From the NCBI GenBank assembly GCA_016180755.1, contig JACPAO010000024.1, positions 1 through 36,961 on the forward strand: a stretch of DNA of 36,961 nucleotides. Direction: 5' to 3'. The notes beneath the pieces are model-generated. The model did no database searches. It had not been told where the DNA came from and worked only from the letters and a program-made list of their open reading frames with translations. Position numbers and translations under genes: made by a program. This document shows positions 735 through 35,068 of this stretch, one piece after another (the first letter of the stretch is position 1; the number at the start of each line of letters is the position of its first letter). Source of the stretch: Methanobacteriota archaeon. GTDB taxonomy: Archaea; Thermoplasmatota; E2; JACPAO01.

Positions 735-1253
735 TCAGTCGCTTCGGACGATGGCCTCGGCGGTGTTGTGGACGCGGATCCGTTCCCGCGCGAGGTCGAA
801 CATGGGGACGGGGTCGCGGATCCCGCGCATGCGCATCGCGCCCGCCCCGTACGCCATCACGTCGAGCTCCGCGTAGCCGAGCAGACGCGAGAAGAAGCCG
901 CGACGAAGCGTGAGGAGCGTGACCTTCTCGTACGGGAGGACCTTGAGGTCGGTGGAGAAGAACTCGGTGCGGGAGTAGATGCGGTTGGGCGTGAGGACGT
1001 AGTCGGTGAACTGGACCTGGACCCACGCGAGGAAGATCCGAGGCCCGAGGTAGACGAGTTCGAGGGTCACGGCGCCGAGTCCGAAGGTGGGGGGCCCCCA
1101 CGGCGGTCCCTCATCGACGAACTCGATCCCCACCCGTGTCATCGCGGCCGAGACCGCGAGCGTCACGCCGACGACGGCGAGGGCCTGGACGACCTCGCCG
1201 ACGAGGAGGCGGGGGGAAGGTCGTACGGTTCGGAGCGGGACCTCGCCGTCCAC
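735..1253 (-). CDS. PH-domain (bPH_2 / YdbS-like) membrane protein, paralogue 1 of 3
   Basis: 172-aa ORF. Two hydrophobic helices are followed by YVLTPNRIYSRTEFFSTDLKVLPYEKVTLLTLRRGFFSRLLGYAELDV, the bacterial-type PH-domain pattern (Y.lT..r......l.......ip...I..v......lG.g.l). Confidence 0.75.
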   Translation of the reverse strand: MDGEVPLRTVRPSPRLLVGEVVQALAVVGVTLAVSAAMTRVGIEFVDEGPPWGPPTFGLGAVTLELVYLGPRIFLAWVQVQFTDYVLTPNRIYSRTEFFSTDLKVLPYEKVTLLTLRRGFFSRLLGYAELDVMAYGAGAMRMRGIRDPVPMFDLARERIRVHNTAEAIVRSD

Positions 1254-1278
1254 GAGCGCGCTCTGGCCGAGCGCGAGG

Positions 1279-1995
1279 TCACGAAGCTCGGGCGCGGCCA
1301 GCCTTCCTCACCTCCGCCTTGTGCCTCGACGCGCAGTGGGGGCAGGGGACGCTTGTGCCGAGTTCGGCCTTGGGCCGTCGGTAGCTTCGGCGCGTGTTCG
1401 GGCACACGAGGGTCATGAGGGCCTTGTCGGGGACGAACCGCGGCAGGCGACGCGGCGGGGGCGCCTCGCGCGGACCCGTCCCGATGGCGCGCTCGCGGGC
1501 CGCCTCGATGAGTTGCTTGAGCGCGAACGCGTCCCGGACGCCTTCCATCTGGACGGGAGCCGTGTTGCTGCCGGCCGTGTTGACAAGGAGGGAGGAGTAA
1601 CCGAAGATGCGGCCGATCACGTCCTGCTTGACGCTGATGTCGGTGATCTTCTCGAACGTCGTCTGGATGACGGTCTGGCCGATGAGGCCGGTCCGCGTGT
1701 ACACGCCCTGGTCTGTGAGGATGTACTGCGTCCGTCGCAGGCGCATGACGTTGAGGCCGACGAGGATGGCGGCGATCACGACGAAGAGCGGAAGGATCGC
1801 GAGGACGGGGGCGCCGGCGTCGGAGGCCGCCCCGAGCGAGAAGAGACTGAAGAAGAGGAACCCGACGATGAGGCCGAACGTCTGCCGGACGAGGACGGCG
1901 AGCGTCGGACGGCCGCGCCAGAGGAGCCGTTCGCCTTTCCGTACGTACTCGGGTACGGCCGCCGAGTCGGGGACGAAGGTGGGCACCTCGGTCAC
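1279..1995 (-). CDS. PH-domain (bPH_2) membrane protein with a degenerate C-terminal zinc-ribbon-like tail, paralogue 2
   Basis: The GTG at 1993-1995 overlaps the stop of the upstream gene (GTGA). The upstream part of the 275-aa track ORF is Arg/Pro-rich and overlaps that gene, so I trimmed it. Motifs: GERLLWRGRP, two TM helices, and QYILTDQGVYTRTGLIGQTVIQTTFEKITDISVKQDVIGRIFGYSSLLVNTAG. The tail is CPN-x19-CPHC. Confidence 0.7.
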   Translation of the reverse strand: MTEVPTFVPDSAAVPEYVRKGERLLWRGRPTLAVLVRQTFGLIVGFLFFSLFSLGAASDAGAPVLAILPLFVVIAAILVGLNVMRLRRTQYILTDQGVYTRTGLIGQTVIQTTFEKITDISVKQDVIGRIFGYSSLLVNTAGSNTAPVQMEGVRDAFALKQLIEAARERAIGTGPREAPPPRRLPRFVPDKALMTLVCPNTRRSYRRPKAELGTSVPCPHCASRHKAEVRKAGRARAS

Positions 1996-2666
1996 GCGGG
2001 CGCCTCCTCGAAGAGCATTCCTCTCTCGTGGCATCGGGGGCACTCGACGTCGATGGGCCGACGGGGCGGGACCGGGAGCACGGCGCCGCAGTTGGGGCAT
2101 TCGCATTCGGTGGAGACGTGCGGCGAGGCCGGCTCGGACCTCGACCGGCCGCTTTCGCGAAGGAGCCGGGCGATGAAGTCATGCCGCGCGTTCTGGATGA
2201 TACCGCGGATCGTGTACGGGTCCCGAAGCCCGGGCAGGTACACGCCGCCGCCCGCCGTGCGGACGGCAAGCCCGGAGTAGCCGAAGATCCGCCCTACGAG
2301 CGTGGTGCGAACATGGAGGTCGGTCACCCGGTCAAGGGCGGCCGCGTCGACATGGAGGAGCAGGTTGCCGCGACGGGCGTACACGGCCTCGTCCGTGACG
2401 ACGTATTCGGACGTCGCCACCCTGCGCCAAACGTAGACGAGGCTCGCGACGAGGTGGAGGGCGGCTCCGGCCGCGATGAAAAGGAGCCAGAGCCCGGGGG
2501 CGGGGGGCCCGCCGAAGACGACGAAGGCCGTCAGTCCGCCCCACACGATCGCCGCGAGGACGAGCGTCGCGAGCATGTGCTCGAACCCCCACGCCCGCGC
2601 CATCCGGGCTTCGACGAGCATGCGCTCGGACCGGAGGAGGAAGAAACGGCGGGGGTAGGAGGCCAA
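1992..2666 (-). CDS. PH-domain (bPH_2) membrane protein with a C-terminal CxxC-x15-CxxC zinc ribbon, paralogue 3
   Basis: 224-aa ORF starting at TTG 2664-2666. Two TM helices are followed by EYVVTDEAVYARRGNLLLHVDAAALDRVTDLHVRTTLVGRIFGYSGLAVRTAG. The tail is ECECPNCGAVLPVPPRRPIDVECPRC. A TATA-like box lies 28 nt upstream. Confidence 0.7.
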   Translation of the reverse strand: MASYPRRFFLLRSERMLVEARMARAWGFEHMLATLVLAAIVWGGLTAFVVFGGPPAPGLWLLFIAAGAALHLVASLVYVWRRVATSEYVVTDEAVYARRGNLLLHVDAAALDRVTDLHVRTTLVGRIFGYSGLAVRTAGGGVYLPGLRDPYTIRGIIQNARHDFIARLLRESGRSRSEPASPHVSTECECPNCGAVLPVPPRRPIDVECPRCHERGMLFEEAPA

Positions 2667-2687
2667 CGCGGCGCGCAGGGGCTCGGC

Positions 2688-2698
2688 GGATTAAAGCC
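2688..2698 (-). promoter_or_regulatory. TATA-like box (minus strand GGCTTTAATCC) upstream of the PH-domain gene trio
   Basis: An isolated AT-rich box in GC-rich DNA, about 28 nt upstream of the TTG start at 2666. The spacing matches the other putative leaderless promoters in this window. Confidence 0.4.
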
Positions 2699-2703: not shown

Positions 2704-3684
2704 TTACGCTCGCCTCGGGCCGCCGGCGCGCGCCTCAAGGAGCGCGCGCTTGGTGAACACGCGCGCCATCCGTTTGCGGTAGCTGGGGCTCAGGTTGGTG
2801 TTCTTCACGGGCCGCACCTGCGTCTCGACGGCGGCCGCGGCCTCGTCGATGGCGGCATCCGTGAGTTTCTTGCCCCGCAGGCCGGACCCGATGTCCCTCA
2901 GAAGCTTGGGGGCGCACTCCAGGGCGTTCGCGACAATCTGCAGGTCCTCGACGGTCTCGCCCTTCATCTTCAGGGCGACCGCGATTCCCAGTTCGGGGAA
3001 ATCCCAGGATTCCCGCTGGCGAAGCTTCTGGTAGCTTGCGCGGTACTGGGACGCCGTTGGGGGCAGGTGGACGAACGTGAGGAGTTCGTCGGGCCGCTTC
3101 GCGTGCCGGTCGATGCCGTCGTTCTTGTAGAACTCGACGGCCGGGACCCGCCGGGTCCCCGAGGGACCGGCGAGCTCGAACGTCGCGCCGAGCGCGATGA
3201 GTGGACCCGGGAGGTCGGCGCTGAAGGTCGCGTAGCACTTGGTCTCCTGCGGGACCACGTGGCAGGCCGTGCCGCCGGCCTTGAGGCAGAAGTCGATGCT
3301 CTCGCGCCAGACGTAGGACTGGTTGAAGAAGAAGCACCGGTTCTCGAGCATTAGGTTCCCGCCGAGGGTCCCTGAGTTGCGGATGAGGGGGCTTGCGATG
3401 AGGCCGGCCGTCTGGGCGACGACCGGGACCTCTTGCCACAGCGCCCCGTCCATGTTCATCTGCTTGAGTGTGGCGAGCGCCCCGATCTTGGTCGGCGAGA
3501 TCGCGCGAAGCTCGTCGACCTTGTGGAGGCCGATGACATGGGGGCGCGTGTTGAGCTGCCATTTGTAGTTGGGCAGGAGGTCCGTGCCGCCCGCGAGGAA
3601 GTCGCTTTCCGGGTGCAGTTGGCGGAGCGCGACGGCCTCCGCGACCGTCGTCGGCTCGTGGAGCTGGAACGGCGGAAGGAGCAT
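2704..3684 (-). CDS. Molybdenum-hydroxylase FAD-binding (medium) subunit with a four-Cys insertion, CoxM/XdhB/HcrB family
   Basis: Only the last 326 aa of the 703-aa track ORF are coherent: MLLPPFQLHEPTTVAEAVAL..FLAGGTDLLPNYK..IRNSGTLGGNL. The insertion is C117-x15-C133-x7-C141-x8-C150 (NRCFFFNQSYVWRESIDFCLKAGGTACHVVPQETKC). The ATG at 3682-3684 is 2 nt after the large-subunit stop. Confidence 0.85.
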   Translation of the reverse strand: MLLPPFQLHEPTTVAEAVALRQLHPESDFLAGGTDLLPNYKWQLNTRPHVIGLHKVDELRAISPTKIGALATLKQMNMDGALWQEVPVVAQTAGLIASPLIRNSGTLGGNLMLENRCFFFNQSYVWRESIDFCLKAGGTACHVVPQETKCYATFSADLPGPLIALGATFELAGPSGTRRVPAVEFYKNDGIDRHAKRPDELLTFVHLPPTASQYRASYQKLRQRESWDFPELGIAVALKMKGETVEDLQIVANALECAPKLLRDIGSGLRGKKLTDAAIDEAAAAVETQVRPVKNTNLSPSYRKRMARVFTKRALLEARAGGPRRA

Positions 3685-3686
3685 GC

Positions 3687-6169
3687 TCACGGTCGGCGCA
3701 CCCCGCGCTTCACGGCGACGGCGGCCGCTTTCCCGAGCGGCGTCGGTTTCTTCCAGCCGCCCTGGAGTCGCATCTGGTCGTGGAGGCGGTCGGGCGTGAT
3801 CGGCAGCTCGTGCATCCGGACGCCGACCGCGTCGTGGATCGCGTTCACGACGGCCGGAAGGATGGGAAGGAGCGGGCCCTCGCCGGCCTCCTTCGCGCCG
3901 AAGGGGCCCTCCGCGTCGTTCGACTCGACGAGGAACGTCTCGACGTCGGGCATCTCGATGCTCGTGGGAATCTTGTAGTCGAGGAGGTTCGGGTTGCGGA
4001 GATTGGGGCCGCGGTACTCGAGGCTCTCCGAGTACACCTGGCCGAGGCCCATGTGGATGCTGCCCTCGATCTGGCCCTCGACGGAGAGCCGGTTGAGGAC
4101 CTTCCCGCAGTCGTGGGCCGCCCAGACCTTGGTGCAGCGCCACTGGGCCGTGTCGAGGTCGACGTCGACCTCCGCCACGTAGGCGTTCATGGAGTAGGCC
4201 GGCGCGAGGCCGGCCGTCGCGCCCTTGAAGTCGCCGCCCATCTTCGTGGAGTTGAACGAACCCCGCGCCACCAGGGCGCCCTTGTGGTCCATCGCCTTCC
4301 GGACGGCGTCCGTGAACGACACGCGCCGGGACGGGTTCGACGCGTCGAAGACCATCTCGTCCTGGAACAGGAACAGCTCGGGCTGCCCGCCCACGACGGC
4401 CGCGGCCGCCTGCTGGAGCTCGCGCCGCACCTCCTCCGCGGCCTTGCGCGCGGCGTTTCCCATCATGAACGTCACGCGGCTCGAGTAGGAGCCGAGGTCG
4501 ATGGGGGCGGTGTCGGTGTTCTGGCTGTACACGCGGATCCGGTCGAGGCGGATCCCGAGGACCTCGGCGACGACCATCGCGGCGACCGTGTCGCTGCCTT
4601 GGCCGATCTCGGCGGCCCCCGTGTGCACGGTCACGCCGGCGTCCATGTCGATCTTGAGGTGGACCGTGGACTGCGGCATCCCCGGGACGTCCCAGTGGAT
4701 GGGTAGGTTGCTGCCGCTGATGTAGAAGCCGCAGCCGAGCCCGAGCCCCTTGCCGAGGGGCATCTTGCGCCACCGTTCGTCCCAACGGCTCGCGGTGCGG
4801 ACCTTGTCGAGGCATTCCGGGAGGCCGTTGCTCGTGATCCGGAAATCGTTGATCGTGTGGCTGTAGGGGGGCATCATGTTCTGGAGGCGCACCGCGAACG
4901 GGTCGAGGCCGAGCTCCTCGCAGGCCTCGTCGATGAGCACCTCGAGGCTGCAGCGCGAGTTCACGGCGCCGTGCCCGCGCATGGCCCCCGAGGGGACGCG
5001 GTTCGTGTAGACGCGGCGGCCCGGTACCGGAAGTTCGGGACCTTGTAGGGGCCCATGCTGAGGACGCCGTTGTAGTAGGTGCTGATGATGCCGAAGCTCG
5101 CGAACGCGCCGCCGTCTATCACGGCCTCGATCTCGAGCGCCTTGATGTTGCCCTGCCGGTCCATCGCGAGGGCGAACTCGTTCTCCGTCGGGTGGCGGCC
5201 GCGGCCCGAGTAGAACGAGTGCTCCCGGTCGAAGAGGAGCTTCACGGGCCGCCGCGTGCGCATGGCGAGGAGGGCGGTCGCCATCTCGAACGGGAACGGG
5301 TCGGACTTTCCGCCGAAGCCTCCGCCCACCTGGGGCCGGATGACCTGGATCCGGTGCATGGGGAGGCCCGTGACCTCGGCGAGGGCCCGGTGCACGTAGT
5401 GCGGTACCTGCGTCGCGCTCCAGACGACGAGCCGTCCGGCGGCCGTATAGTGGGCTATGACGCAGTGCGGTTCGGTGAAGGCGTGGGTGACGCCTTGGAA
5501 CTTCCACTTGCGGCGGACGGAATAGTCGGCTGCGCGGAACGCCTCGTCGGGGCGGCCGAACTCCTGGTCGACGTGCTTCTGCACGTTCGATTGGTCGATG
5601 CCGATGTCGGGGTGGATCTTCTCGGGGACGGGCTTGAGGCCTTCGCTCGGCTTGAGGTACGAGGGGAGGTCCTCGTACGTGACCTTGAGGAGCCTCACCG
5701 CCTCCTTCGCCGTCCACTCGTCCTCGGCGGCGACGATCGCCACGTAGTCGCCGATGAAGCGCACCTTCTCGAGCGCGAGGGGCTCCTCGTCCTTCGTGAG
5801 GGGAAGCACGCCGAACTTGCGCGTGGGGTCGAGCTCGAGGCCGGTGAGCACGTCCACGACGCCCGCGAGGTTACGCGCATCGGTCGCATCGATCGCCTTG
5901 ATCCGCGCATGGGGTCGCGTCGAGTGGAGCATCTTCGCGACGAGCATGTTGGGGAGCTGGATGTCGTCCGTGTAGACGGCCTGGCCGCTCACCTTCGAGG
6001 GGCCGTCGATGAGCGGCACACGTTTCCCGAGCAGCTTGAAACCCTCGGCGGGCCGGTGCGGATGCTCACCCGCGGGCAAGGGCTCGCGGTACGGCCGCCA
6101 CTTCGCCTCGGGGTCGACGTCCGGGACGACGACCGCCTTCCGCTTGTCGGGGATGGGCTCGAGCGTCAT
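3687..6169 (-). pseudogene. Molybdopterin-binding large subunit of a xanthine-dehydrogenase-family enzyme (aldehyde oxidoreductase / 4-hydroxybenzoyl-CoA reductase-like), split by a frameshift near 5015-5030
   Basis: The N-terminal part lies in the frame of ORF 4961..6286 (MTLEPIPDKRK..QVGGGFGGKSDPF..GPYKVPNFRY). The C-terminal part lies in the frame of ORF 3687..5717 (GRRVYTNRVPSGAMRGHGAVNS..AKEAGEGPLLPILPAVVNAIHDAVG). Homology jumps frames within TACCGGGCCGCCGCGTC. The start ATG overlaps the small-subunit stop (ATGA). Confidence 0.8.
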
Positions 6170-6687
6170 TTCGCCCGCCTCGCGGGGGCGGCGATCGGCG
6201 GCGTCGGCCGGGCGGGCTCGGGGGCGAGCTCCTTCGCGGCGACCTTCACGGCGTCGATGATCTTGATGTATCCCGTGCAGCGGCACAGGTTTCCGCTGAT
6301 GGCTTCCCGGATCTCCTTGTCGTCCGGGTCGGGGTTCCGGTCAAGGAGCGCCTTCGTCGTCATGATGAAGCCGGGCGTGCAGAAGCCGCACTGGCTACCG
6401 CCGATCTCACTGAAGGCCGCCTGGATTGGATGGAGCCGATTGGGTGTCCCGAGAGCCTCCACCGTCGTAATCTCCTTCCCTGCGGCTTGCGCCGCGAGCG
6501 TGAGGCAGCTCAGGCGGTTCTCGCCGTCGATCAAGACCGTGCAGCAGCCGCAGGTCCCCATGTCGCAGCCGCGCTTCGTTCCGGTGAGGCGGCAGGATTC
6601 CCGGAGGACGTCGAGGAGGATGGCGTTGTCCGGCGCCGCGACTTCACGGGCGACGCCGTTCACCGTGAGCTTGAGGATCTTGTTCAT
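6166..6687 (-). CDS. [2Fe-2S]-binding small subunit of the molybdenum hydroxylase (CoxS/XdhC-gamma/HcrC family)
   Basis: 173 aa with both cluster motifs, GCDMGTCGCCTV and CGFCTPGFIMT..LCRCTGY. It has ATGA overlaps with both neighbouring genes. Confidence 0.9.
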   Translation of the reverse strand: MNKILKLTVNGVAREVAAPDNAILLDVLRESCRLTGTKRGCDMGTCGCCTVLIDGENRLSCLTLAAQAAGKEITTVEALGTPNRLHPIQAAFSEIGGSQCGFCTPGFIMTTKALLDRNPDPDDKEIREAISGNLCRCTGYIKIIDAVKVAAKELAPEPARPTPPIAAPARRAK

Positions 6688-8150: not shown

Positions 8151-8606
8151 ATGGTCCGAATCGTGGCCTCGGCCGAGGTGCCGGTTCCGCCCGAACGTGC
8201 GAGCGAGCTCATCCTGAACCCTCGCGTCATGGAGCAGTGGCTCATCGGCGCGAAGGGCATGAAGGCCGACAAGTCGTGGCCGTTCTTCAACACGTCCTTG
8301 AGCTGGGAGACAGGCCAAGGCGCGGAGTTCTGCGAGGCCCGGGTCCTGGACAACCACCTCCCCGAGTTCCTCAAGGTCGACGTCACGACGCCGACGCACA
8401 GCCGCGTCGTCACGCACAAGTTCACAGCGCTCCCAAACGGCCGGACCCTGTACGAGCGGGTCGTCGAGGCGGAGTTCTCGGGGTTCCAGAAGCTCTTCGG
8501 GGCGGGACGGCTGAAGAGCCAGATCGAAAAAGAGGTCCGGCGGGCGGCGAGCCTCGTGAAGGAGGCCCCCGCCGCGGCGAAGAAGACAACCATGAAGCCT
8601 GCCTAG
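8151..8606 (+). CDS. SRPBCC-superfamily protein (CoxG / polyketide-cyclase-like fold)
   Basis: 151-aa ORF. The N-terminus IVASAEVPVPPERASELILNPRVMEQWL resembles the opening of SRPBCC/CoxG proteins. It is divergent from the Mo-hydroxylase operon. The fold assignment is by eye only. Confidence 0.5.
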   Translation: MVRIVASAEVPVPPERASELILNPRVMEQWLIGAKGMKADKSWPFFNTSLSWETGQGAEFCEARVLDNHLPEFLKVDVTTPTHSRVVTHKFTALPNGRTLYERVVEAEFSGFQKLFGAGRLKSQIEKEVRRAASLVKEAPAAAKKTTMKPA

Positions 8607-8644: not shown

Positions 8645-9130
8645 GTGACCCCCGGCACCCTGCGGCCCGCCCACAGCGAATTCGGGACCGTCGATCCCCC
8701 CCCTGCCCTCTCGCGCCAAACGGTGGAATTGTTGCGGCGCCGACTGCTCGACGGCAAGCTTTCCCTTTTCGAGAAGTACCGCGCCATCTTCGGCCTTCGA
8801 AACCTCAACACGCCCGAGTCGGCCGTCGCCCTCGGCGAGGCCATGCTCGTCGATGCGAGCGCGGTCCTCCGCCATGAGTGCGCGTACGTCCTGGGGCAGA
8901 TGCAGCAACCGGCCTCGTTGCCCTACCTGGAGAAAGGCCTCCGCTTCGACGGGCATGTGATGGTCCGCCACGAGTGCGCCGAGGCCCTGGGGGCGCTTGG
9001 CGGGGAGAAAGCCGAGGCCCTTCTGCGGCAGGCGCTCGAAGAGGACGCGGCCGTCGAGGTCCGCGAAAGCTGCGAGCTCGCCTTGCAGCACCTTGACTAC
9101 CTGCGGGATTCTGGGCGCCTCGACCTGTAG
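8645..9130 (+). CDS. Half-length deoxyhypusine hydroxylase (DOHH)-like HEAT-repeat protein with two His-Glu motifs
   Basis: 161 aa with a GTG start. LFEKYRAIFGLRN..SAVLRHECAYVLGQMQ..VMVRHECAEALGALG..VEVRESCELAL matches one half of eukaryotic DOHH motif for motif (LFERYRAMFALRN..SALFRHEVGYVLGQLQ..MVRHECAEALGAI..VRESCEVAL). The HE pairs are at H77/E78 and H109/E110. Confidence 0.75.
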   Translation: MTPGTLRPAHSEFGTVDPPPALSRQTVELLRRRLLDGKLSLFEKYRAIFGLRNLNTPESAVALGEAMLVDASAVLRHECAYVLGQMQQPASLPYLEKGLRFDGHVMVRHECAEALGALGGEKAEALLRQALEEDAAVEVRESCELALQHLDYLRDSGRLDL

Positions 9131-9332: not shown

Positions 9333-11600
9333 CTAGGGGAGCGGTCGTGACGAGCGGCTGGTTCGTTGGTGCTGGCGGGCCGCGTCGCGCTCGAACCAAG
9401 TGTCGATAAGGTCCTGGATCTGGCCTTTTTGGCTTTTCGAAACCGTCGGGAGGGCCTTGAGGGCACCCAGGAAATGCGAGCGTTCGAGCTGGGTCACGAG
9501 CCCATCGTCGAGGATGGCCCTCAATCGCTTCACCATGCCGTGGGGCAAGAACTCGAAGTGCTCGTCCACGATGCGCAGCCGGACGGTTCGATGGAGTTCG
9601 TCGACGCGGCGCTCCAACACCTGCGCCTGGCTGTCGGCGAGCCGGTGGCTGAAGAGGTGCTGTCGAGCGCGCTGCCGGTATTCCTCGAGCACGGATTCGC
9701 AGGCTTCCGGGTCGGCTTCGGTCCGTTCGTACGCGTCGTCGATGGCACGTATCTCCCGCTGGAATCGCGCGTTTCGGATCAGGATGAGCGTCACCAGAAG
9801 CCCCACGACGAAGAACGTCTTGTCCTGGTTCTCGGGCAAGAGGGCTTTCGACAGGAATGACAACGAGGGGTCGATAGTACCAGCATAGATCTGAAGGCTG
9901 GTCGTCGATTCCTGCCCGGCCGGGTTCCTGGCCCAGGCCCGGACCGTGAACGTGACCGGCGCCTCGTACTGGTGCGTGAAAACGTCGCCGGGTGCCCAAT
10001 CGGCCCCCGTGCCGTCTCCCCAGTCAATCCGGAAATCGGTCGCAGGCCCGAAGGCCCCCGGCCTAGTGTCCGAGAACGCCAGCCAGAACGGCTCGCCGGG
10101 CCGCGGGTACAGCGTCGAGGCCCGCGTCTGGATTCCGATCGAGGCCGCGCTGCGCCCCAGGATGGTGAGCCGGCCGCGGGCATCGACCGCGGCTAGCATT
10201 TCGTCGGACACACTGAATTGTACTTGGCGAGGGAAGGCGTGGCTCCATCGCTCGCGTCCCGTTCGTGGGTCGATGCAGTGGAGGATGCCGGGCGACTCAC
10301 GGTCCTGGCGTTGGCGGCTCGACTGAACGAACACGCACGTGCCCGTGGCGACGGTGGGGCCCTCCACGAGTTCGAACCCTGCCGGCAACTCGAAGGCCCA
10401 GCCTTGGGTGAGCTCGAAGTCGAATTCGAGGATTCCCCTACGGTTGGGGACGTAGAGGCGGTCCCCCCACAGGGCGATGGTGGTGTCGACGTCGCCTTCG
10501 AGGTTCGGCCCAGGCCGGGAGTCCGTTGCCTTGCTGGAAGGAGGGTCGGAAAGGTTGTAGCGGATGAGGGAATCGAACTTCGCGAACGCCCAATGGCTGG
10601 CACCGGTCGCATGCGGGGGCCGATTGGGCGCATTGGCGCCGACCGCCCCCGGTCCCGTCTGCGAGACCGTGCCCGTCGTCGCAAGCTGCCATCGCAATCC
10701 CTCGAAGGCGCCACGGGTCGCGTTGAGGAACCAGACCTCGCTCACAACCGCCCCGCCACGGTTGTCCTCGCGCTCCAGGGCGTCCCCGTCCGTGACGTAG
10801 TCGACGAGCGTCAGTGTATTCCCAACCAGAGCGAGTCCTGACAGTTCCACGAAGAACCCGCTTTTTCGGGGCGCATAGCTGAACCCCTGCCAGGTCACGG
10901 GATTGTTTCCGGCAGGTCGAACCGCGGTCTCGCTGTCACGGACCCAGGTCCAGAGGACCGAACGCGTGCGCGTATCGAAGGCGCGGACGAAAACTGCGTC
11001 GGCCTGGCCGAAGGATGCGCGGTCGCGGCACGCGATCACGAGCACGTGGCCTTGGAGCAGGGGCGAGACGCATCGGTCAGTATCAAAACCTGGCAGGGGG
11101 GTTGTCTGGTCGACTGCGGGGTTCAACGAAGTCGAAAGCCGGCCGTCAAAACGGTGGGCCGTCAGGTTGAAGACCTCGATGTAGGAGCCCGTGTACACGT
11201 ACAGGTTCTCGCCGTCGGAGACCAGCTCCGACGAGCTTGCCGCGATGCTGAAGAGCGTCTCCTGAGTCCCCGACGAAGCGTTGACGCGTCGGACCGTGAC
11301 GTTGTACGTCGGCGAGGGGAACGCGCGAAGGTGCACGTTGGCCATGTAGATCTGGTCGCCCAGGATCAGCGGCGGATCCATGCGGCCGGCGCGACCTGAT
11401 GCCGACGACGTGAAATTCTGGAGCTGGATGGAAAACGCCACTTCGTCGACACGCGGCCCGGGGCCGTCCGCGGCCCCCGTCCGGGCTGGATTGACGCCGC
11501 TTTGACCCCAATCGGCGGCCGCGGAGGGAGCTCCAACGCTCGTCCCCAGAACGAGCAGGAAAAGGGCCCATTCCATACCGTGCCGCGCCACGAACGCCAC
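9333..11600 (-). CDS. Secreted PQQ-like beta-propeller plus PKD-domain protein with one TM helix and a ~150-aa cytoplasmic helical tail
   Basis: 755 aa. Signal peptide MAFVARHGMEWALFLLVLGTSVGAPSAAA. Propeller-type repeats include DTRTRSVLWTW and IDPRTGRERWSHAF. PKD motif DFRIDWGDGTGADWAPGDVFTHQYEAPVTFTVRAWARN. TM helix TFFVVGLLVTLILI. The tail is charged and helical. The GTG start at 11600 has a TATA-like box 28 nt upstream. Confidence 0.7.
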   Translation of the reverse strand: MAFVARHGMEWALFLLVLGTSVGAPSAAADWGQSGVNPARTGAADGPGPRVDEVAFSIQLQNFTSSASGRAGRMDPPLILGDQIYMANVHLRAFPSPTYNVTVRRVNASSGTQETLFSIAASSSELVSDGENLYVYTGSYIEVFNLTAHRFDGRLSTSLNPAVDQTTPLPGFDTDRCVSPLLQGHVLVIACRDRASFGQADAVFVRAFDTRTRSVLWTWVRDSETAVRPAGNNPVTWQGFSYAPRKSGFFVELSGLALVGNTLTLVDYVTDGDALEREDNRGGAVVSEVWFLNATRGAFEGLRWQLATTGTVSQTGPGAVGANAPNRPPHATGASHWAFAKFDSLIRYNLSDPPSSKATDSRPGPNLEGDVDTTIALWGDRLYVPNRRGILEFDFELTQGWAFELPAGFELVEGPTVATGTCVFVQSSRQRQDRESPGILHCIDPRTGRERWSHAFPRQVQFSVSDEMLAAVDARGRLTILGRSAASIGIQTRASTLYPRPGEPFWLAFSDTRPGAFGPATDFRIDWGDGTGADWAPGDVFTHQYEAPVTFTVRAWARNPAGQESTTSLQIYAGTIDPSLSFLSKALLPENQDKTFFVVGLLVTLILIRNARFQREIRAIDDAYERTEADPEACESVLEEYRQRARQHLFSHRLADSQAQVLERRVDELHRTVRLRIVDEHFEFLPHGMVKRLRAILDDGLVTQLERSHFLGALKALPTVSKSQKGQIQDLIDTWFERDAARQHQRTSRSSRPLP

Positions 11601-13566: not shown

Positions 13567-13630
13567 CACTGAAACCGGGCACGGCCTCCCGGCGACTGCC
13601 ACCGGGCCGGTGACACAAGTTAACCAATGT

Positions 13631-13640
13631 GGTTATATGG
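13631..13640 (+). promoter_or_regulatory. TATA-like box (GGTTATATGG) for surface-protein paralogue 1
   Basis: About 31 nt upstream of ATG 13664. Confidence 0.45.
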
Positions 13641-13663
13641 GTCAAGGCCGGCTCGTGCGAACA

Positions 13664-15838
13664 ATGCCTTCCCGCGCCGCCCCAGTGGCCGCCACGTTGC
13701 TTCTTCTGGCGCTGGCCGGCAGCCTCCCCCCGGCGTCCGCCCAGGAACCGGGCGTCGTGCACAAGGAGGACGCGAAGAACGACGTCACCTTCAGCGCCCA
13801 GCAGGTGAATTCTCCGAACCTCCCCGACAACGAGGTCACGTCCTACGTCGACATCCACACCCTCACGGTCACCGATGTCGACGAGGAGACGCTTGAGGTC
13901 CGCCTCAAGACGGGGACCCCGTTCGTCGTCATGAATGGCCAGAAGCTGCAGACGTACGGGATCGAGGAGGTCTACCACCAGGTCTTCTTCTCCATCCCGG
14001 GGGCCGGCGGTCAGCCGGTCCAGGCCCAGGTCAACGTCCGCTCGATCCACGTCCACGTCGAGAACAACACGCCCAGCAAAGGCTTCCTCGTCGTCTACGC
14101 CAGCCTCTGCTTCCCAAGTTCCCTCCAGCAATACCAGTATTCGTGCGAGTACGGAGGCAACCAGCTTCCCGTCTCCGCCGACGGCGGCGTACTTGTCGCG
14201 CGGATCCCGAAGGAAAAACTGACCCAGGTGGGGCAGGAGGGCGAGCGCACCCGGAACGCCAACCTTCCCGGACGGCTCTTCCCCGGAGACGTCCTCACGG
14301 ACGTCTACGCGCGGGCGTTCCTACGCCCCTTCTTCACGGGCGGGGGTTTCTTGGAGGTCGCACGCTTCATCGACCGCGCCCCCGACTCGGGCGGCCTCCA
14401 AATTACGCTCCGGTTCGGCTCGCCCGCCCCCGACCTCAAGATGAGCGTCCCCCAGGCCGCCGTCATCCTTGGCCAGGAGAACCAGGTGCCCGTCCTGGTC
14501 CAGAACCTTGGCACGCACAAGCGCATCGTGAATCTCACGGTCGACCGCCTTACCGCCGACCAGCCTTGGACGGCCTCCGTCACGCCCTCCGTCACCCTGG
14601 GGGCCGGGAAATCCGCGAACGTCACGCTACGCGTCACGCCCCCGCCGGCCGGAACGAGCGACCGCCTCACGGCCGTCCTCAAGCTCCGCGCAACCATCCT
14701 CACGGAGCCCGGCACGATCGCCATCGCGCGCCTCGGCCTCGTCGCCGCGCCTCCGCTCGACCGCGACCACAGCACCTATTTCGTCGTCGGCCGCCAATGG
14801 AACTCGTTCTTCGGGCTTCCGTTTCCCTTCCTCGCGTGGGGCGAGGGAGGCCTTACCCGCAGCGAGACCGACGCCCGCTTCGCGACCGCCACGTCGTTCG
14901 CCATGAGCCCGTCCTTCGGCACGAGCTCGGGGGTCACCTCGTTCGCGTTCCAGTCTTCGCTCCGGTCCGACCCCATCCCCAACGCCGCGGTCATCCGGCC
15001 CGGCGAACCCGCCCAGGCCGTCGTGGACATCGAGGCGCCTTACCCGGCCGCGGCGACCCTCGCCATCACCGGACAGTTCGGGCCCCAGCTCCTCTTCCAG
15101 ACGCAGAAGACGATCACCCTCGCGGCCGGCTCCAACAAGATTCCCTTCGACGTGCCGATCCTCCCGAGCGTGCAGCGCCTTGACCCGTCGAACGGCACGC
15201 TGCGCGTCGACATCCGCCTCTCGGTTCAGGGCGCCGACGGCGCGCCCTACCTCACCTCGTACTTCGGCGTCAACGGCCCGAAGATCGTCCCGAAGACGAC
15301 GTTCGTCCGGTTGCCCGTCGACCGCGAGGTCCCGGCTGTGCAGGCCGCGACCGCGAAGGTCGCCCTCTCCCCGGCGGAGGAACTCGACGGGTTCGTCAAC
15401 CCGGGGCGCGTCCAGGTCGTCGAGCTCGACGTTCGCAACGAGGAACCCCGCGAGATGACCTTGCAGCTCGAGGCCCTCAACGTCACCGAGGGCTGGGACG
15501 TCGCGGTGAAGCCTGGTGCCCGGCTCCGGCTTGCGAGCCAGGACGCCGTCCACGTGGGCGTCCTCATCAAGGCCCCGGCGGACGCGAAGGAAGGAGACGC
15601 CCTCAAGTTCCGGCTCGTCGTGCGAGACGTCGTCAACGATACGCTCGTCGCCGGCCAGTGGATCCGCTCCATCGTCACCCGCGGCGTCGAGATCGAGAAC
15701 GAGACGTTCGAGGTCGCGCAGGACGACGCGAAGAAGCTCGACGTCCCCTCCGGGAAATCCCCCGGTCTGGGGCTCCTTGCCGCCTTGGCGGCGACCGCGG
15801 CCGCGGGGCTCCTGGGAAGGCGGCGTCGTGCCGCGTGA
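13664..15838 (+). CDS. Secreted cell-surface protein, paralogue 1 of 4 (uncharacterised family, PGF-CTERM-like C-terminal anchor)
   Basis: 724 aa from ATG 13664. Signal peptide MPSRAAPVAATLLLLALAGSLPPASAQ. Family motifs: YVDIHTLTVTDVDEETLEVRLK, RFIDRAPDSGG, KRIVNLTVD, TLGAGKSANVTLRVTPP, PPLDRDHSTYFV, IPNAAVIRPGEP, FVNPGRVQVVELDVRNEE, APADAKEGD, TRGVEIENETF. The C-terminus is SPGLGLLAALAATAAAGLLGRRRRAA. Confidence 0.85.
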   Translation: MPSRAAPVAATLLLLALAGSLPPASAQEPGVVHKEDAKNDVTFSAQQVNSPNLPDNEVTSYVDIHTLTVTDVDEETLEVRLKTGTPFVVMNGQKLQTYGIEEVYHQVFFSIPGAGGQPVQAQVNVRSIHVHVENNTPSKGFLVVYASLCFPSSLQQYQYSCEYGGNQLPVSADGGVLVARIPKEKLTQVGQEGERTRNANLPGRLFPGDVLTDVYARAFLRPFFTGGGFLEVARFIDRAPDSGGLQITLRFGSPAPDLKMSVPQAAVILGQENQVPVLVQNLGTHKRIVNLTVDRLTADQPWTASVTPSVTLGAGKSANVTLRVTPPPAGTSDRLTAVLKLRATILTEPGTIAIARLGLVAAPPLDRDHSTYFVVGRQWNSFFGLPFPFLAWGEGGLTRSETDARFATATSFAMSPSFGTSSGVTSFAFQSSLRSDPIPNAAVIRPGEPAQAVVDIEAPYPAAATLAITGQFGPQLLFQTQKTITLAAGSNKIPFDVPILPSVQRLDPSNGTLRVDIRLSVQGADGAPYLTSYFGVNGPKIVPKTTFVRLPVDREVPAVQAATAKVALSPAEELDGFVNPGRVQVVELDVRNEEPREMTLQLEALNVTEGWDVAVKPGARLRLASQDAVHVGVLIKAPADAKEGDALKFRLVVRDVVNDTLVAGQWIRSIVTRGVEIENETFEVAQDDAKKLDVPSGKSPGLGLLAALAATAAAGLLGRRRRAA

Positions 15839-15856
15839 GGGACGTCCTCCTCAACC

Positions 15857-15864
15857 CTTAAGAG
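15857..15864 (+). promoter_or_regulatory. Weak TATA-like box (CTTAAGAG) for paralogue 2
   Basis: About 27 nt upstream of GTG 15885, in the 46-nt spacer. Confidence 0.3.
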
Positions 15865-15884
15865 CCGAAGCCCCCACGGGGCGC

Positions 15885-18032
15885 GTGGTCCTCCTGCGGT
15901 CCCTCTGCTTCGCCGTCGTAGCCCTGCTCCTCGTTCCCGCCGTGGCGGCGCAGGACAAGAAATGGGAGAAGGAGGACGGGCCCGGCGACATGGTCCTCAC
16001 GGTCGGGGGACAAGTGACGCCCGTCCCAGCCCCGCCGATTCGGCACGTGAACTACGGCGACCTCACCCACCTCACGATCGACGACCCGCACGAGGGCTAC
16101 ATCGAGTTCCGCCTCCGGAACCAGGCCGGTTACGTCGCGTCGCCCGGAACCTTGGGCGGCGTCGAGGAGATCATTCAGCATATCCTCTTCCAGCCTCCCA
16201 ACGCGCAGGGCTGGGCGGGGCTTGCCGTCTACAGTTCCGTTCCCGGGACCTCCCCGGCCTCCAACCCGGTGACCTCGCGGGTGAACTTCTGCACCGACAC
16301 GGATCCCGCGCGGCTAAGCTGCTTCGGCGAATCCACGCTGCCCTTCTCCGTCGAGGAGAAGGAGCTTGTCATCAAACTCCCGAAGAAGGCCCTCACCGCG
16401 GACGGCGCCCCGAAGGGCGGCCGCGCCGCGATCGTGTTCCCCGCGGCCCTTTTCGCCGGCGACCAGCTCACCCGCGTCCACGTGCGTTCGTATTCGACCG
16501 TCCCCATCGTCCTGTTCGGGAGTGGCACGGCGAGCGGCGGCCGTACGGTGACGTTCTTCGACCGTCTTCCGAACGATGGCGACGGTCCCGCGTACGTCCT
16601 CAAGCACGGCGCGAGCCCGCCCGACCTCGAGGTGAGGGTGCTCCGCGCCGGCCTCGTCGCCGGTGAGGAGACGCTTGTGCCGATCAGCATCGCGAACAAG
16701 GCCCCGAGCAAGCGCCTCCTAAACCTGACCGCGGAGGTCCTCTCGGGTGGCGAGGGATGGAAGTACGGCCTCACCCCGGCCCTCACGCTTGGATCGGGAA
16801 AGTCGGCGAACGCAACGCTCCGCATCACGGCGCCTCGCGGCGGCACCGGCGACGCGAACCGCGCCACCTTCCGCATCGCGGCCGCCATCATGAACGAGCC
16901 GGGGAGACGGAGCCTTGTGGAGGCGAGCTTCGTCGCGGGCCCGGCGCTCGACGCGGGCCGCAGCACGTTCTACCTCCATCGCGGTCAGACGGAGACGGTG
17001 CTCGCGCCGACCGCGTACGGCGAGAGCGACGCGTTCCTGAGCCGCTACGAGACGGACCCGGAGGCTCGGGACGACGCTGGGATCCACGCGGGAAAGCGCG
17101 TGGGCTCGGGGGTGTCCGGTTTCCGGTTCCCGTTCGACTTTTTCGACGGAGGAAGCCTCCGGGACGCGATCCCGAACGCGGCGAGCCTGCGGAAAGCCGA
17201 GCCCATCAAGGGCCACTTCGAGTTCGACGTGCCGATCGACCTCCAGGGACGCGCGACGTTCACGCTCACCGCGGGCGACGGAAAGGTCCTTCTCGCCTCC
17301 GGCCAGAAGGACATCGCGTTCAAGGCCGGCAAAAACGTCGTCGACATCGACGCTGCGATCGCCGGCCCCTTCGAGCGCCTCGGGCCGAGCGACCTCCTTT
17401 CCGGCGACGTCCTCCTCGCCAGCGACCCGCTCGTGGGCTTCGCCGGATATTTCGTGAGCTTCGCGGACGACTTCTACATGCTCCCCAAAACGTCGCACTT
17501 CACGATCCCCGTCGACCGCGAGGCCGAGGTCATCATACGGCCGGACCTGCCGCGCGTGAGCCTCGCCGCCGCGGAAGACACCGAAGCGTTCGTGAACCCC
17601 GGCCGCAAGACCGTGTTCGAGGTCGACCTCCTCAACGACGACACAAAAGCCCAGAACCTGGTCCTCTTGGTCGACAACAAGACCCTCGAGTGGGACGTAC
17701 AGATCCTGCCCGGAACCGACCTGCGACTTCGGGCGAACGAATCCGCCCGCCTCGGGATCATCGTCCATGCACCCGCGGATGCCAAGGAGGGCACGAAGCT
17801 CCAACTCTCGATCGCCGCGCGACTGCGCGAGACCAACGAACTTCTGTCGCTACTCCGGCTCTCCGCCCTCGCGACGAGCGGCGTCGAGATCGACAACGAG
17901 ACCTTCGAGGTCGCCGCGGAGGACGCAAGGAAGCTGGCCACCCCGGACGGACGCTCCCCGTTCCCCATGTTCGTCGCCGTTGGGGCCGTCCTCGCCGTGG
18001 CCGCCCTCCTGCGGCGCCGGTTGTTCAGTTAG
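15885..18032 (+). CDS. Secreted cell-surface protein, paralogue 2 of 4
   Basis: 715 aa from GTG 15885. The upstream part of the 838-aa track ORF overlaps paralogue 1 and is Arg/Ser-rich. Signal peptide (M)VLLRSLCFAVVALLLVPAVAAQ. It has the same motif series: YGDLTHLTIDDPHEGYIEFRLR, FFDRLPNDGDGPAYVL, KRLLNLTAE, TLGSGKSANATLRITAP, IPNAASLRKAEP, FVNPGRKTVFEVDLLNDD, APADAKEGT, TSGVEIDNETF. The C-terminus is SPFPMFVAVGAVLAVAALLRRRLFS. Confidence 0.8.
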   Translation: MVLLRSLCFAVVALLLVPAVAAQDKKWEKEDGPGDMVLTVGGQVTPVPAPPIRHVNYGDLTHLTIDDPHEGYIEFRLRNQAGYVASPGTLGGVEEIIQHILFQPPNAQGWAGLAVYSSVPGTSPASNPVTSRVNFCTDTDPARLSCFGESTLPFSVEEKELVIKLPKKALTADGAPKGGRAAIVFPAALFAGDQLTRVHVRSYSTVPIVLFGSGTASGGRTVTFFDRLPNDGDGPAYVLKHGASPPDLEVRVLRAGLVAGEETLVPISIANKAPSKRLLNLTAEVLSGGEGWKYGLTPALTLGSGKSANATLRITAPRGGTGDANRATFRIAAAIMNEPGRRSLVEASFVAGPALDAGRSTFYLHRGQTETVLAPTAYGESDAFLSRYETDPEARDDAGIHAGKRVGSGVSGFRFPFDFFDGGSLRDAIPNAASLRKAEPIKGHFEFDVPIDLQGRATFTLTAGDGKVLLASGQKDIAFKAGKNVVDIDAAIAGPFERLGPSDLLSGDVLLASDPLVGFAGYFVSFADDFYMLPKTSHFTIPVDREAEVIIRPDLPRVSLAAAEDTEAFVNPGRKTVFEVDLLNDDTKAQNLVLLVDNKTLEWDVQILPGTDLRLRANESARLGIIVHAPADAKEGTKLQLSIAARLRETNELLSLLRLSALATSGVEIDNETFEVAAEDARKLATPDGRSPFPMFVAVGAVLAVAALLRRRLFS

Positions 18033-18044
18033 CCTCACCAAACG

Positions 18045-18055
18045 GCTTATATTGG
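18045..18055 (+). promoter_or_regulatory. TATA-like box (GCTTATATTGG) for paralogue 3
   Basis: About 30 nt upstream of ATG 18077, in the 44-nt spacer. Confidence 0.45.
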
Positions 18056-18076
18056 TTCCCTCCCGCTTGGCGCTTG

Positions 18077-20233: not shown

Positions 20234-20251
20234 CATTCGCCCACCGATACG

Positions 20252-20259
20252 TCTAAATC
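20252..20259 (+). promoter_or_regulatory. Weak TATA-like box (TCTAAATC) for paralogue 4
   Basis: About 29 nt upstream of GTG 20282. Confidence 0.3.
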
Positions 20260-20281
20260 CTCCGGGCACGCCCGGCGCGTC

Positions 20282-26420: not shown

Positions 26421-26537
26421 ATGAATATTCGGCCCATGTACCCGTTCAACGACCATCCAGCGCTCGTTGTCATGAGACTCATCGGTTTTTCGTTCATTGT
26501 GATCGGGGCGCTTGCCTTCGCCATTGCCCTCACTTAG
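26421..26537 (+). CDS. Small one-TM membrane protein, cassette copy A, gene 2
   Basis: 38 aa, below the ORF-track cutoff. ATG 26421 is directly preceded by GGAGGA. MNIRPMYPFNDHPALVVMRLIGFSFIVIGALAFAIALT shares the YPFxxHPALVxxRL motif with the ORF at 35069-35185. Confidence 0.5.
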   Translation: MNIRPMYPFNDHPALVVMRLIGFSFIVIGALAFAIALT

Positions 26538-26649
26538 CGGCCTCCAGGCCGCGCTGACACGTTTGAGTCCCGGCGACCCCGTCCATGACACAACCTGGAC
26601 GGCCCGTTACGGCAACGCTTATGACGCACCGGGGGTGCTCGTTCGACCC

Positions 26650-28089: not shown

Positions 28090-28096
28090 TGGCCCC

Positions 28097-31830: not shown

Positions 31831-31880
31831 ATGGGAGTCCTCGGCGCCGGCCATGGTCAGAGTACGGGCTTATCTAGGTT

Positions 31881-32930: not shown

Positions 32931-32935
32931 CCCCG

Positions 32936-35059: not shown

Positions 35060-35068
35060 ATCGTGTCC

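What the first reader, a model, noticed from the sequence alone, without database searches (positions are those of the whole stretch)
8645..9130. Half-size homologue of deoxyhypusine hydroxylase (DOHH) in an apparently archaeal genome
The 161-aa protein aligns motif for motif with one of the two symmetric halves of eukaryotic DOHH, as I recall that sequence. The shared blocks are LFEKYRAIFGLRN, SAVLRHECAYVLGQMQ, MVRHECAEALGALG and VRESCELAL. It carries exactly two His-Glu pairs, H77/E78 and H109/E110, 32 residues apart. In eukaryotic DOHH, four HE pairs, two per half, bind the diiron centre. A homodimer of this half-protein could rebuild the full site. It would also look like the pre-duplication ancestor of the eukaryotic enzyme. 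To my knowledge DOHH is regarded as essentially eukaryotic. To my knowledge, too, the enzyme that makes hypusine rather than deoxyhypusine in some archaea has not been identified. That would make this a candidate for the missing activity. It could equally be a hydroxylase with a different substrate.
Basis: partly seen in the sequence, partly recalled or inferred. Interest (0 to 1): 0.7.

Follow-up and report, generated by a model that had tools for sequence, protein, structure and literature searches.

The report
Half-size deoxyhypusine hydroxylase in archaea
An uncultured Thermoplasmatota archaeon, like several hundred relatives including the abundant marine Group II archaea, carries a gene for exactly one half of the eukaryotic enzyme that completes the hypusine modification of translation factor 5A, an enzyme the literature describes as absent from archaea.

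Summary
ORF 8645-9130 (+) encodes a 161-aa protein of four HEAT repeats. Its best sequence match (E=1.4e-51) and best fold match (TM 0.79, 45% identity) is human deoxyhypusine hydroxylase (DOHH). It aligns with each half of DOHH separately. It keeps every residue known to bind iron (H77, H109, E110) or the deoxyhypusine side chain (E78, E110, G84). The contig is from Thermoplasmatota. About 390 species-level genomes carry a relative, and those listed were nearly all single-copy, half-size genes in MGII/Poseidoniales or other Thermoplasmatota. The only two-domain "prokaryotic" hits look like mis-binned eukaryotic DNA. Papers I could search say archaea have no DOHH.

The most likely reading is a homodimeric diiron hydroxylase that converts deoxyhypusine to hypusine on aIF5A in aerobic archaea. 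The dimer, the iron and the substrate are inferred, not shown. A self-fusion model resembles full-length DOHH only moderately (TM 0.66).

The archaeal sequences are a mosaic of N-half and C-half states and are closer to each half than the halves are to each other. This looks ancestral, but the tree cannot be rooted.

The gene does not visibly explain hypusine in Sulfolobus and other Crenarchaeota. Verdict: a new variant of a known enzyme kind, of high interest.

The parts
8645..9130 (+). Gene for the 161-aa half-size DOHH homologue (GTG start; stop at 9128-9130)
   Evidence: ORF list; GC3 0.85; 4d4z E=1.4e-51; the N-terminus aligns with homologues from the first residues
8608..8619 (+). AT-rich element GAAAGTTTCTTG, 26-37 nt upstream of the start codon. 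Possible archaeal TATA/BRE promoter for a leaderless transcript (inferred only)
   Evidence: Read directly from the sequence in a 66-70% GC region. In relatives the gene stands alone between oppositely oriented neighbours. No sigma-70-like site was found
8645..8719 (+). N-terminal arm (residues 1-25), homologous to the inter-domain linker of eukaryotic DOHH. It contains the conserved V-D-P-x-P motif at 8690-8704
   Evidence: Aligns with human residues 143-167 '...YLSVDPAPP'. D17 and P18 are at least 90% conserved in the family. pLDDT is low (52-78) in the monomer model. Motif coordinates checked
8723..8806 (+). HEAT repeat 1 (helices 27-35 and 41-54)
   Evidence: AF2 model secondary structure
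8813..8902 (+). HEAT repeat 2 (helices 57-69 and 73-86). It carries H77-E78 (8873-8878) and G84 (8894-8896), which correspond to human H56/H207, E57/E208 and G63(65)/G214
   Evidence: residue roles from PMC9117371
8909..8998 (+). HEAT repeat 3 (helices 89-101 and 105-118). It carries M106-V-R-H109-E110 (8960-8974), which correspond to human H89-E90 and H240-E241
   Evidence: residue roles from PMC9117371 and PMC3306375
9005..9106 (+). HEAT repeat 4 (helices 121-133 and 137-154) with the invariant block E138-V-R-E-S-C143 (9056-9073). 'EV' is the N-half state and 'RES' the C-half state

Best explanation
The gene encodes a genuine, functional member of the DOHH lineage that consists of a single four-HEAT-repeat domain. 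[quoted passage not shown] Each subunit would give H77, H109 and E110 to one iron, so that the dimer holds an oxygen-activating diiron centre. E78, E110 and G84 of both subunits would line the pocket for the deoxyhypusine side chain. The enzyme would hydroxylate deoxyhypusinated aIF5A to hypusinated aIF5A using O2. The conserved N-terminal arm, which is homologous to the eukaryotic linker, probably packs on the partner subunit. Shown here: specific homology, fold, residue conservation, archaeal host, wide single-copy distribution. Inferred: the dimer, iron binding, the substrate and the reaction.
For: DOHH-specific sequence match to both halves and fold match. Full-length eukaryotic DOHHs are the nearest non-archaeal relatives at 42-50% identity. 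H77, E78, G84, M106, H109 and E110 are invariant in 26 close homologues, and both HE motifs are present in all intact proteins among 155 unique family members, with the human-like 33-residue (or 32-residue) spacing. These are exactly the residues shown by mutagenesis and the crystal structure to hold the diiron centre and the deoxyhypusine side chain (PMC9117371; PMC3306375). There is one copy per genome and no tandem or diverged paralogue, so a diiron site requires a homodimer. A head-to-tail self-fusion model matches full-length 4d4z at TMt 0.66 over 306 columns, against 0.45 for one half and 0.3-0.4 for continuous HEAT solenoids. [quoted passage not shown] The hosts I know of are aerobes (MGII), and the window carries an aerobic-type Mo-hydroxylase cluster, which fits an O2-dependent enzyme. 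The gene is syntenic and vertically inherited in relatives.
Against: There is no experimental evidence for hypusine in any Thermoplasmatota carrying the gene. Cultured Thermoplasmales and other Euryarchaeota were reported to contain mainly deoxyhypusine (PMC5178350). No DHS or aIF5A gene is linked to it in any locus. In Poseidoniales it is instead tightly linked to a menaquinone (futalosine-pathway) gene. The dimer model was made without an alignment, has moderate confidence (pLDDT 72), and the predictor may have been trained on 4d4z. Coordinates could not be inspected, so I could not check whether the His/Glu residues converge.
Confidence: 0.6

Rival explanations
1. Same fold and same diiron chemistry, but a different substrate: a small molecule such as a quinone or polyamine intermediate, or another protein, rather than aIF5A.
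For: In nearly all Poseidoniales loci the gene lies about 9 nt downstream of, and on the same strand as, a VitK2_biosynth (MqnA/MqnD-like) gene, next to MqnC-like and second Mqn genes. The pair stays together where the flanks are inverted. No locus links it to DHS or aIF5A. Euryarchaeota analysed so far have mostly deoxyhypusine (PMC5178350).
Against: The Mqn adjacency is absent from the window and from the soil and other Thermoplasmatota loci, so it is lineage-specific. The residues that bind the deoxyhypusine side chain in human DOHH (E57/E208, E90/E241, G214) are invariant here. To my knowledge, no step of the futalosine pathway needs an O2-dependent hydroxylation. DOHH is known to act on a single substrate (PMC9117371).
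Confidence: 0.2
2. Evolutionary rival. The archaeal gene is not a pre-duplication relic. It descends from the C-terminal half (with its linker) of an already duplicated, stem-eukaryotic DOHH, acquired by horizontal transfer and truncated, and then re-adapted to work as a homodimer.
For: The archaeal profile scores higher on eukaryotic C halves (160-175 bits) than on complete N halves (110-137 bits). In about 1.8 billion representatives, the best stretch of most full-length DOHHs is the C half. The N-terminal VDPAP arm is shared only with the eukaryotic linker and C half. Branch lengths N > C > A fit this topology under a relaxed clock. No Asgard genome appeared among the listed hits.
Against: The archaeal sequences are not nested inside the eukaryotic C-half clade (C monophyletic in 71-79% of bootstraps). 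They are closer to N halves (41.5%) than C halves are (36.8%). Conserved columns are mosaic (A=N≠C in 3, A=C≠N in 4, N=C≠A in only 1). The gene is present in both MGIIa and MGIIb and in other Thermoplasmatota orders, which implies old residence. No eukaryotic donor lineage stands out.
Confidence: 0.3
3. A monomeric enzyme with one iron held by a 2-His-1-carboxylate triad (H77, H109, E110) instead of a diiron dimer.
For: Each half of DOHH supplies exactly 2 His + 1 Glu to one iron (PMC9117371), the ligand set typical of mononuclear non-haem iron oxygenases (my own knowledge). The monomer is predicted to fold stably on its own (pLDDT 91).
Against: No co-substrate site such as a 2-oxoglutarate site is evident. 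The conserved but poorly ordered N-terminal arm suggests a partner surface. The self-fusion model adopts the DOHH two-domain arrangement. DOHH chemistry depends on the bridged diiron-peroxo species (PMC9117371).
Confidence: 0.07
4. A non-catalytic HEAT/PBS-lyase-like scaffold protein of the kind common in archaea and cyanobacteria.
For: Pfam and NCBIfam report only generic HEAT_2/HEAT_PBS, with very weak NblB and CpcE hits. NCBI names a homologue 'HEAT repeat domain-containing protein'.
Against: The DOHH match is about 30 orders of magnitude better than any generic HEAT protein. The His-Glu metal motifs are invariant across the family. NblB and CpcE scores are 15-21 bits against cut-offs of 300-330.
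Confidence: 0.03

Closest known systems
Eukaryotic deoxyhypusine hydroxylase (human DOHH, PDB 4D4Z; yeast Lia1; Drosophila nero)
   Same: HEAT-repeat fold. 40-46% identity to each half. Identical His-Glu metal motifs with the same spacing. The same substrate-contacting Glu and Gly residues. The conserved VDPAP segment ahead of the domain.
   Different: Half the size: four HEAT repeats and two HE motifs in 161 aa, instead of eight repeats and four HE motifs in about 300 aa. It must therefore oligomerise to form a diiron site. It is found in archaea, not eukaryotes. Activity is untested.
Archaeal and bacterial PBS-lyase-type HEAT proteins (MTH187, PDB 1TE4; the alpha-Rep designs derived from that family; E. 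coli YibA, PDB 1OYZ; CpcE/CpcF; NblB)
   Same: The same repeat type (Pfam HEAT_PBS/HEAT_2) and a similar helical-hairpin geometry.
   Different: Much weaker similarity (E 6e-20 to 0.05 against 1e-51). YibA is described as lacking the DOHH active-site residues (PMC3306375). These proteins form continuous solenoids rather than a two-domain clamp (TMt 0.3-0.4 to the self-fusion model).
EpmC (YfcM), the hydroxylase of beta-lysyl-Lys34 of bacterial EF-P
   Same: A functional analogy only: the final hydroxylation of the modified lysine on the bacterial orthologue of a/eIF5A (my own knowledge).
   Different: To my knowledge it has an unrelated fold and sequence. It was not compared here.

Membership tests
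Deoxyhypusine hydroxylase (DOHH, EC 1.14.99.29) | Sequence similarity specific to DOHH rather than to generic HEAT repeats | tested here: met
   4d4z E=1.4e-51 against 6e-20 or weaker for the next hits. The nearest non-archaeal relatives are annotated DOHHs at 42-50% identity.
Deoxyhypusine hydroxylase (DOHH, EC 1.14.99.29) | Eight HEAT repeats in a symmetrical dyad of two four-repeat domains, with four His-Glu motifs in one chain | tested here: not met
   Only four repeats (eight helices) and two His-Glu motifs in 161 aa. All listed archaeal homologues are 150-179 aa.
Deoxyhypusine hydroxylase (DOHH, EC 1.14.99.29) | Iron-anchoring residues (human H56, H89, E90 / H207, H240, E241) | tested here: met
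   H77, H109 and E110 align with them and are invariant. Roles are from PMC9117371 and PMC3306375.
Deoxyhypusine hydroxylase (DOHH, EC 1.14.99.29) | Residues that bind the deoxyhypusine side chain (human E57, E90, E208, E241, G63/65, G214) | tested here: met
   E78, E110 and G84 are invariant. Roles are from PMC9117371.
Deoxyhypusine hydroxylase (DOHH, EC 1.14.99.29) | Fold of a DOHH domain | tested here: met
   AF2 model with pLDDT 91. Best PDB match is 4d4z, TMq 0.79, 45% identity.
Deoxyhypusine hydroxylase (DOHH, EC 1.14.99.29) | Two domains facing each other to build one diiron site | tested here: inconclusive
   The self-fusion model (no alignment, pLDDT 72) matches full-length 4d4z at TMt 0.66. 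No multimer predictor was available and no coordinates could be inspected.
Deoxyhypusine hydroxylase (DOHH, EC 1.14.99.29) | Binds two Fe and forms a peroxo-diiron(III) intermediate | not testable with these tools
   Needs protein chemistry and spectroscopy.
Deoxyhypusine hydroxylase (DOHH, EC 1.14.99.29) | Hydroxylates deoxyhypusine on a/eIF5A | not testable with these tools
   Needs an enzyme assay or proteomics. There is no genomic linkage to DHS or aIF5A.
HEAT_PBS / HEAT_2 repeat superfamily (Pfam PF03130, PF13646) | Score above the Pfam gathering thresholds | tested here: met
   HEAT_2 69.1 bits (cut-off 27.7); HEAT_PBS 53.1 bits (cut-off 20.9).
Phycobilin lyase / NblB family | NCBIfam equivalog score | tested here: not met
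   NblB 20.6 bits against 300; CpcE 15.2 bits against 330.

The most novel reading that the evidence does not exclude
The half-size protein is a living representative of the single-domain, homodimeric ancestor from which the eukaryotic two-domain DOHH arose by duplication and fusion. It is active today, so the ocean's most abundant planktonic Euryarchaeota (MGII) and related soil Thermoplasmatota make true hypusine. Complete hypusination would then not be a eukaryotic invention: it arose in, or passed through, aerobic archaea outside the Asgard lineage.
Probability: 0.3. Interest if true: 0.85.

Novelty: new variant of a known kind. Interest (0 to 1): 0.72.

Why it matters
Reviews and primary papers state that DOHH is absent from archaea and that the archaeal route from deoxyhypusine to hypusine is unknown. 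This finding gives a concrete candidate that is easy to clone, at least for Thermoplasmatota, including MGII, one of the most abundant archaeal groups in the surface ocean. The candidate is 161 aa, soluble, and present in hundreds of genomes. If it is active as a homodimer, it would be the minimal form of an unusual class of oxygenase, a diiron site built from HEAT repeats. It would also serve as a natural 'half-enzyme' control for how the two halves of human DOHH, a drug target, cooperate. It bears on the origin of the eukaryotic enzyme as well, because it is the kind of single-domain gene that an internal duplication would have started from. It does not by itself solve the older puzzle of hypusine in Sulfolobus and other Crenarchaeota.

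Tried and rejected
1. Pfam and NCBIfam gave only generic HEAT families for this protein. Neither returned a DOHH-specific model, so they cannot decide membership.
2. PADLOC gave only a weak generic HEAT hit, so there is no indication of a defence role.
3. Gene-neighbourhood analysis over 17 and then 96 loci found no universally conserved neighbour and no DHS or aIF5A. A regex scan for the aIF5A hypusine loop in about 2 Mb of fetched DNA found nothing. Longer relatives' contigs show no DHS or aIF5A within 10 kb.
4. Tree topology cannot settle ancestry. With three clans any unrooted tree is uninformative, and with the full archaeal set the deep nodes are unsupported. The Biopython bootstrap timed out and was replaced by a numpy neighbour-joining routine.
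5. Full-length prokaryotic DOHH: the only two candidates (L098 'Putridiphycobacter', L099 Verrucomicrobiaceae MAG) have intron-like interruptions and eukaryote-like neighbours, so I rejected them as mis-assigned eukaryotic DNA.
6. A heterodimer of paralogues was rejected: second copies in a MAG are 84-100% identical or belong to one probably mixed bin.
7. The LeuB scan for taxonomy was uninformative (best 44% identity, to a Chloroflexi MAG). It was replaced by the LeuC protein search.
9. Park et al. 2006 (PMC1324997) is not held.
10. The exhaustive representative search ranks by summed score, so it lists mostly two-domain DOHHs and giant HEAT proteins and does not give the number of half-size clusters.
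11. No tRNA or Rfam element is in the window. The sigma-70 and terminator scans found nothing relevant.

Full report
OBSERVATION. The ORF at 8645-9130 (+) exists, starts with GTG and encodes 161 aa. Its codon-position GC (0.75/0.44/0.85) is typical of a real gene in this 66-70% GC window. So are exactly two His-Glu pairs, H77/E78 and H109/E110, 32 residues apart.

IS IT DOHH-LIKE OR JUST HEAT-LIKE? Pfam and NCBIfam return only generic HEAT_2/HEAT_PBS hits and negligible NblB/CpcE scores. A direct comparison with all PDB sequences is decisive. Human deoxyhypusine hydroxylase (4d4z) scores E=1.4e-51, and the 161-aa protein aligns end to end with each half separately (N half 80.7 bits, C half 99.4 bits). 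The next hits, artificial alpha-Rep HEAT proteins, are about 30 orders of magnitude weaker. An AlphaFold2 model built on 26 homologues is confident (pLDDT 91, pTM 0.84) and shows eight helices, which is four HEAT hairpins. Foldseek again ranks 4d4z first (TMq 0.79, 45% identity).

ACTIVE-SITE RESIDUES. In human DOHH the diiron centre is anchored by H56, H89, E90, H207, H240 and E241. The deoxyhypusine side chain is bound by E57, E90, E208, E241 and two glycines seven residues after the first His of each half (PMC9117371; PMC3306375). The archaeal protein has H77, E78, G84, H109 and E110 at exactly these positions. They are invariant in 26 close homologues. Both HE motifs occur in every intact sequence among 155 unique family members, with an H-to-H spacing of 33 residues as in human (135 sequences) or 32 residues in the window's subclade (17 sequences).

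HOST AND DISTRIBUTION. The window is a whole 36,961-bp contig. All named top hits of its LeuC are Thermoplasmatota. It also encodes archaeal-type IPMI and LEU3 and a DacZ-type cyclase, as well as HTH_10 and DUF7537 proteins. A homologue's contig carries tRNA-intron endonuclease, class-I LysRS, PcrB and UbiA.

Scans of one genome per GTDB species found 389-399 confirmed relatives. The 80 best in each of two rankings are almost all Poseidoniales: MGIIa Poseidoniaceae and MGIIb Thalassarchaeaceae, including single-cell genomes. The rest are other Thermoplasmatota from soil, sand and groundwater. A few contigs carry bacterial labels, and at least L008 is syntenic with the archaeal loci, so these look mis-binned. 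All matches are half-size (150-179 aa).

The only two-domain matches, L098 and L099, have intron-like interruptions and eukaryote-like neighbours. I regard them as eukaryotic DNA in 'bacterial' assemblies. Genomes carry one copy, and the rare second loci are 84-100% identical or come from one probably mixed bin. In two closer relatives the gene sits in the same chromosomal order as in the window: Mo-hydroxylase, XdhC, MobA, then half-DOHH, HTH_10, LeuCDB, DAC, PKS-III and ICMT. There it is a stand-alone gene. An AT-rich element 26-37 nt upstream of the GTG could be its archaeal promoter. That is an inference.

LITERATURE. Papers state that no DOHH orthologue has been found in any archaeal genome. 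They also state that hypusine was detected in Crenarchaeota, while Euryarchaeota, including Thermoplasmales, contain mainly deoxyhypusine (PMC5178350; PMC6105217; PMC3306375). Seven full-text searches found no report of an archaeal or half-size DOHH. Automatic JGI annotation does label some of these proteins 'deoxyhypusine monooxygenase', whereas NCBI calls one a HEAT-repeat protein. So the homology is visible to pipelines but, as far as I can tell, has not been discussed.

MECHANISM. Each half of DOHH gives only two His and one Glu to one iron, so a single-copy half-size gene can form a diiron site only as a homodimer. The available predictor takes single chains. This fusion mimics the eukaryotic topology, because the archaeal N-terminus is homologous to the human linker. 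The model has pLDDT 72 and pTM 0.68. It matches full-length 4d4z over 306 columns at TMt 0.66. One half alone reaches 0.45, and continuous HEAT solenoids such as alpha-Rep or YibA reach 0.3-0.4. This result is compatible with a DOHH-like pairing but is weak evidence: no alignment was used, 4d4z may have been in the predictor's training data, and no coordinates could be inspected. The N-terminal 25 residues are conserved (RP..S.FG[TS]VDPAP) but poorly ordered in the monomer model. That fits an arm which packs on the partner subunit.

The substrate, deoxyhypusinated aIF5A, should exist in these organisms, because DHS and aIF5A are reported from all archaeal genomes (PMC5178350, PMC6105217). MGII are, to my knowledge, aerobes, and the window has an aerobic-type Mo-hydroxylase cluster. 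Both points fit an O2-dependent enzyme. I put 0.6 on 'homodimeric diiron hydroxylase of aIF5A-deoxyhypusine'.

RIVALS. (a) A different substrate. In Poseidoniales the gene is almost always about 9 nt downstream of an MqnA/MqnD-like gene, within a futalosine-pathway cluster, and the pair survives a local inversion. This linkage is absent from the window and from other Thermoplasmatota, and the deoxyhypusine-binding residues are conserved, so I give it 0.2. (b) A mononuclear 2-His-1-Glu monomer: 0.07. (c) A non-catalytic HEAT scaffold: effectively excluded.

ANCESTRY. I compared archaeal proteins (A) with eukaryotic N and C halves. Mean identities are A-N 41.5%, A-C 44.1% and N-C 36.8%. Mean tip-to-centre distances are A 0.39, N 0.67 and C 0.58. 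Among columns conserved in all three groups, 33 are identical, 4 have A=C≠N, 3 have A=N≠C and only 1 has N=C≠A. Examples are LLRHE in A against LLKHE in N and LFRHE in C, and EVRESC in A against EVAETC in N and VVRESC in C. N and C are each monophyletic (79% of bootstraps), and the archaeal sequences are not nested in either. With the full archaeal set the deep order is unresolved.

This pattern is what a slowly evolving pre-duplication lineage would show. However, an unrooted tree of three clans cannot separate that from an early, pre-LECA offshoot of the C half. The latter is favoured by the higher C-half scores, the VDPAP arm shared with the linker, and the absence of Asgard hits among those listed. 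I put about 0.3 on each directional reading and leave the remainder undecided.

LIMITS. Only the best 80 of about 390 genome hits per scan were visible, so absence from Crenarchaeota, Asgard or cultured Thermoplasmatales is not proven. The dimer, the iron, the substrate and the activity are all untested.

VERDICT. This is a real and specific finding: a half-size, probably homodimeric archaeal version of an enzyme regarded as exclusively eukaryotic. It is a new variant of a known kind, directly testable, and of high interest. It is not, on present evidence, the answer to hypusine formation in Crenarchaeota.

Noticed in passing
L010 4772-10465 and most Poseidoniales loci (L009, L017, L027-L097); not in the window: In MGII/Poseidoniales the half-DOHH gene lies about 9 nt downstream of a VitK2_biosynth (MqnA/MqnD-like) gene. 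A second Mqn gene and an MqnC-like radical-SAM gene lie upstream, and primase PriS lies downstream. The Mqn-DOHH pair stays together where the flanks are inverted (L070, L077, L084, L086, L096).
   Followed up: partly
L098 4001-4945 (OZ245997.1, 'Putridiphycobacter sp.' chromosome 1, 6.9 Mb) and L099 4001-5124 (Verrucomicrobiaceae MAG): Two-domain DOHH genes occur in assemblies labelled bacterial. One has an in-frame intron-like insertion and the other is split into exon-like pieces, and both have eukaryote-looking neighbours. They are probably eukaryotic DNA that was mislabelled or mis-binned, and in the first case possibly a whole chromosome.
   Followed up: partly
window 3687-6286 (-): The large subunit of the Mo-hydroxylase (xanthine/CO-dehydrogenase family) is split between two reading frames. 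ORF 4961-6286 has Ald_Xan_dh_C plus most of MoCoBD_1, and ORF 3687-5717 has the end of MoCoBD_1 plus MoCoBD_2. This implies a frameshift near 5005-5045. Relatives have one 826-aa gene. It could be a pseudogene, an assembly error or recoding.
   Followed up: partly
window 2704-4815 (-): The 703-aa ORF has the FAD-binding and CO_deh_flav_C domains only in its last ~320 residues. Its first ~380 residues have no family hit and overlap the MoCoBD_2 coding frame, so the ORF is probably over-extended at its 5' end.
   Followed up: partly
window 13610-22441 (+), 26512-29509 (+), 29525-33829: There is a large block of genes for very big proteins with Ig-like (Ig_VWA7, FixG_C), BNR/sialidase-like, LVIVD and CarboxypepD_reg domains, presumably surface proteins, plus a PQQ/PKD protein at 9333-11600 (-). 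This block is inserted relative to the shorter syntenic region of relatives.
   Followed up: no
window 34918-36846 (+): A type III polyketide synthase (chalcone/stilbene synthase-like) is followed by an ICMT-family methyltransferase. The pair is conserved in a relative's contig, which suggests an alkylresorcinol or alkylpyrone-type lipid pathway in these archaea.
   Followed up: no
window 735-2690 (-): Three consecutive, partly overlapping genes each carry a bacterial PH (bPH_2) domain.
   Followed up: no
window 8151-8606 (+): An SRPBCC/Polyketide_cyc2-like protein (26.9 bits, just under the Pfam cut-off) lies 38 nt upstream of the half-DOHH on the same strand. Relatives have a cupredoxin gene on the opposite strand at this position instead, so the neighbour is not conserved.
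   Followed up: partly
L068 and L080 (MAG SAT2971, two contigs): One MGII MAG holds two half-DOHH genes that are only 60% identical. It is either a mixed bin or a rare case of true paralogues, which could form a heterodimer.
   Followed up: partly
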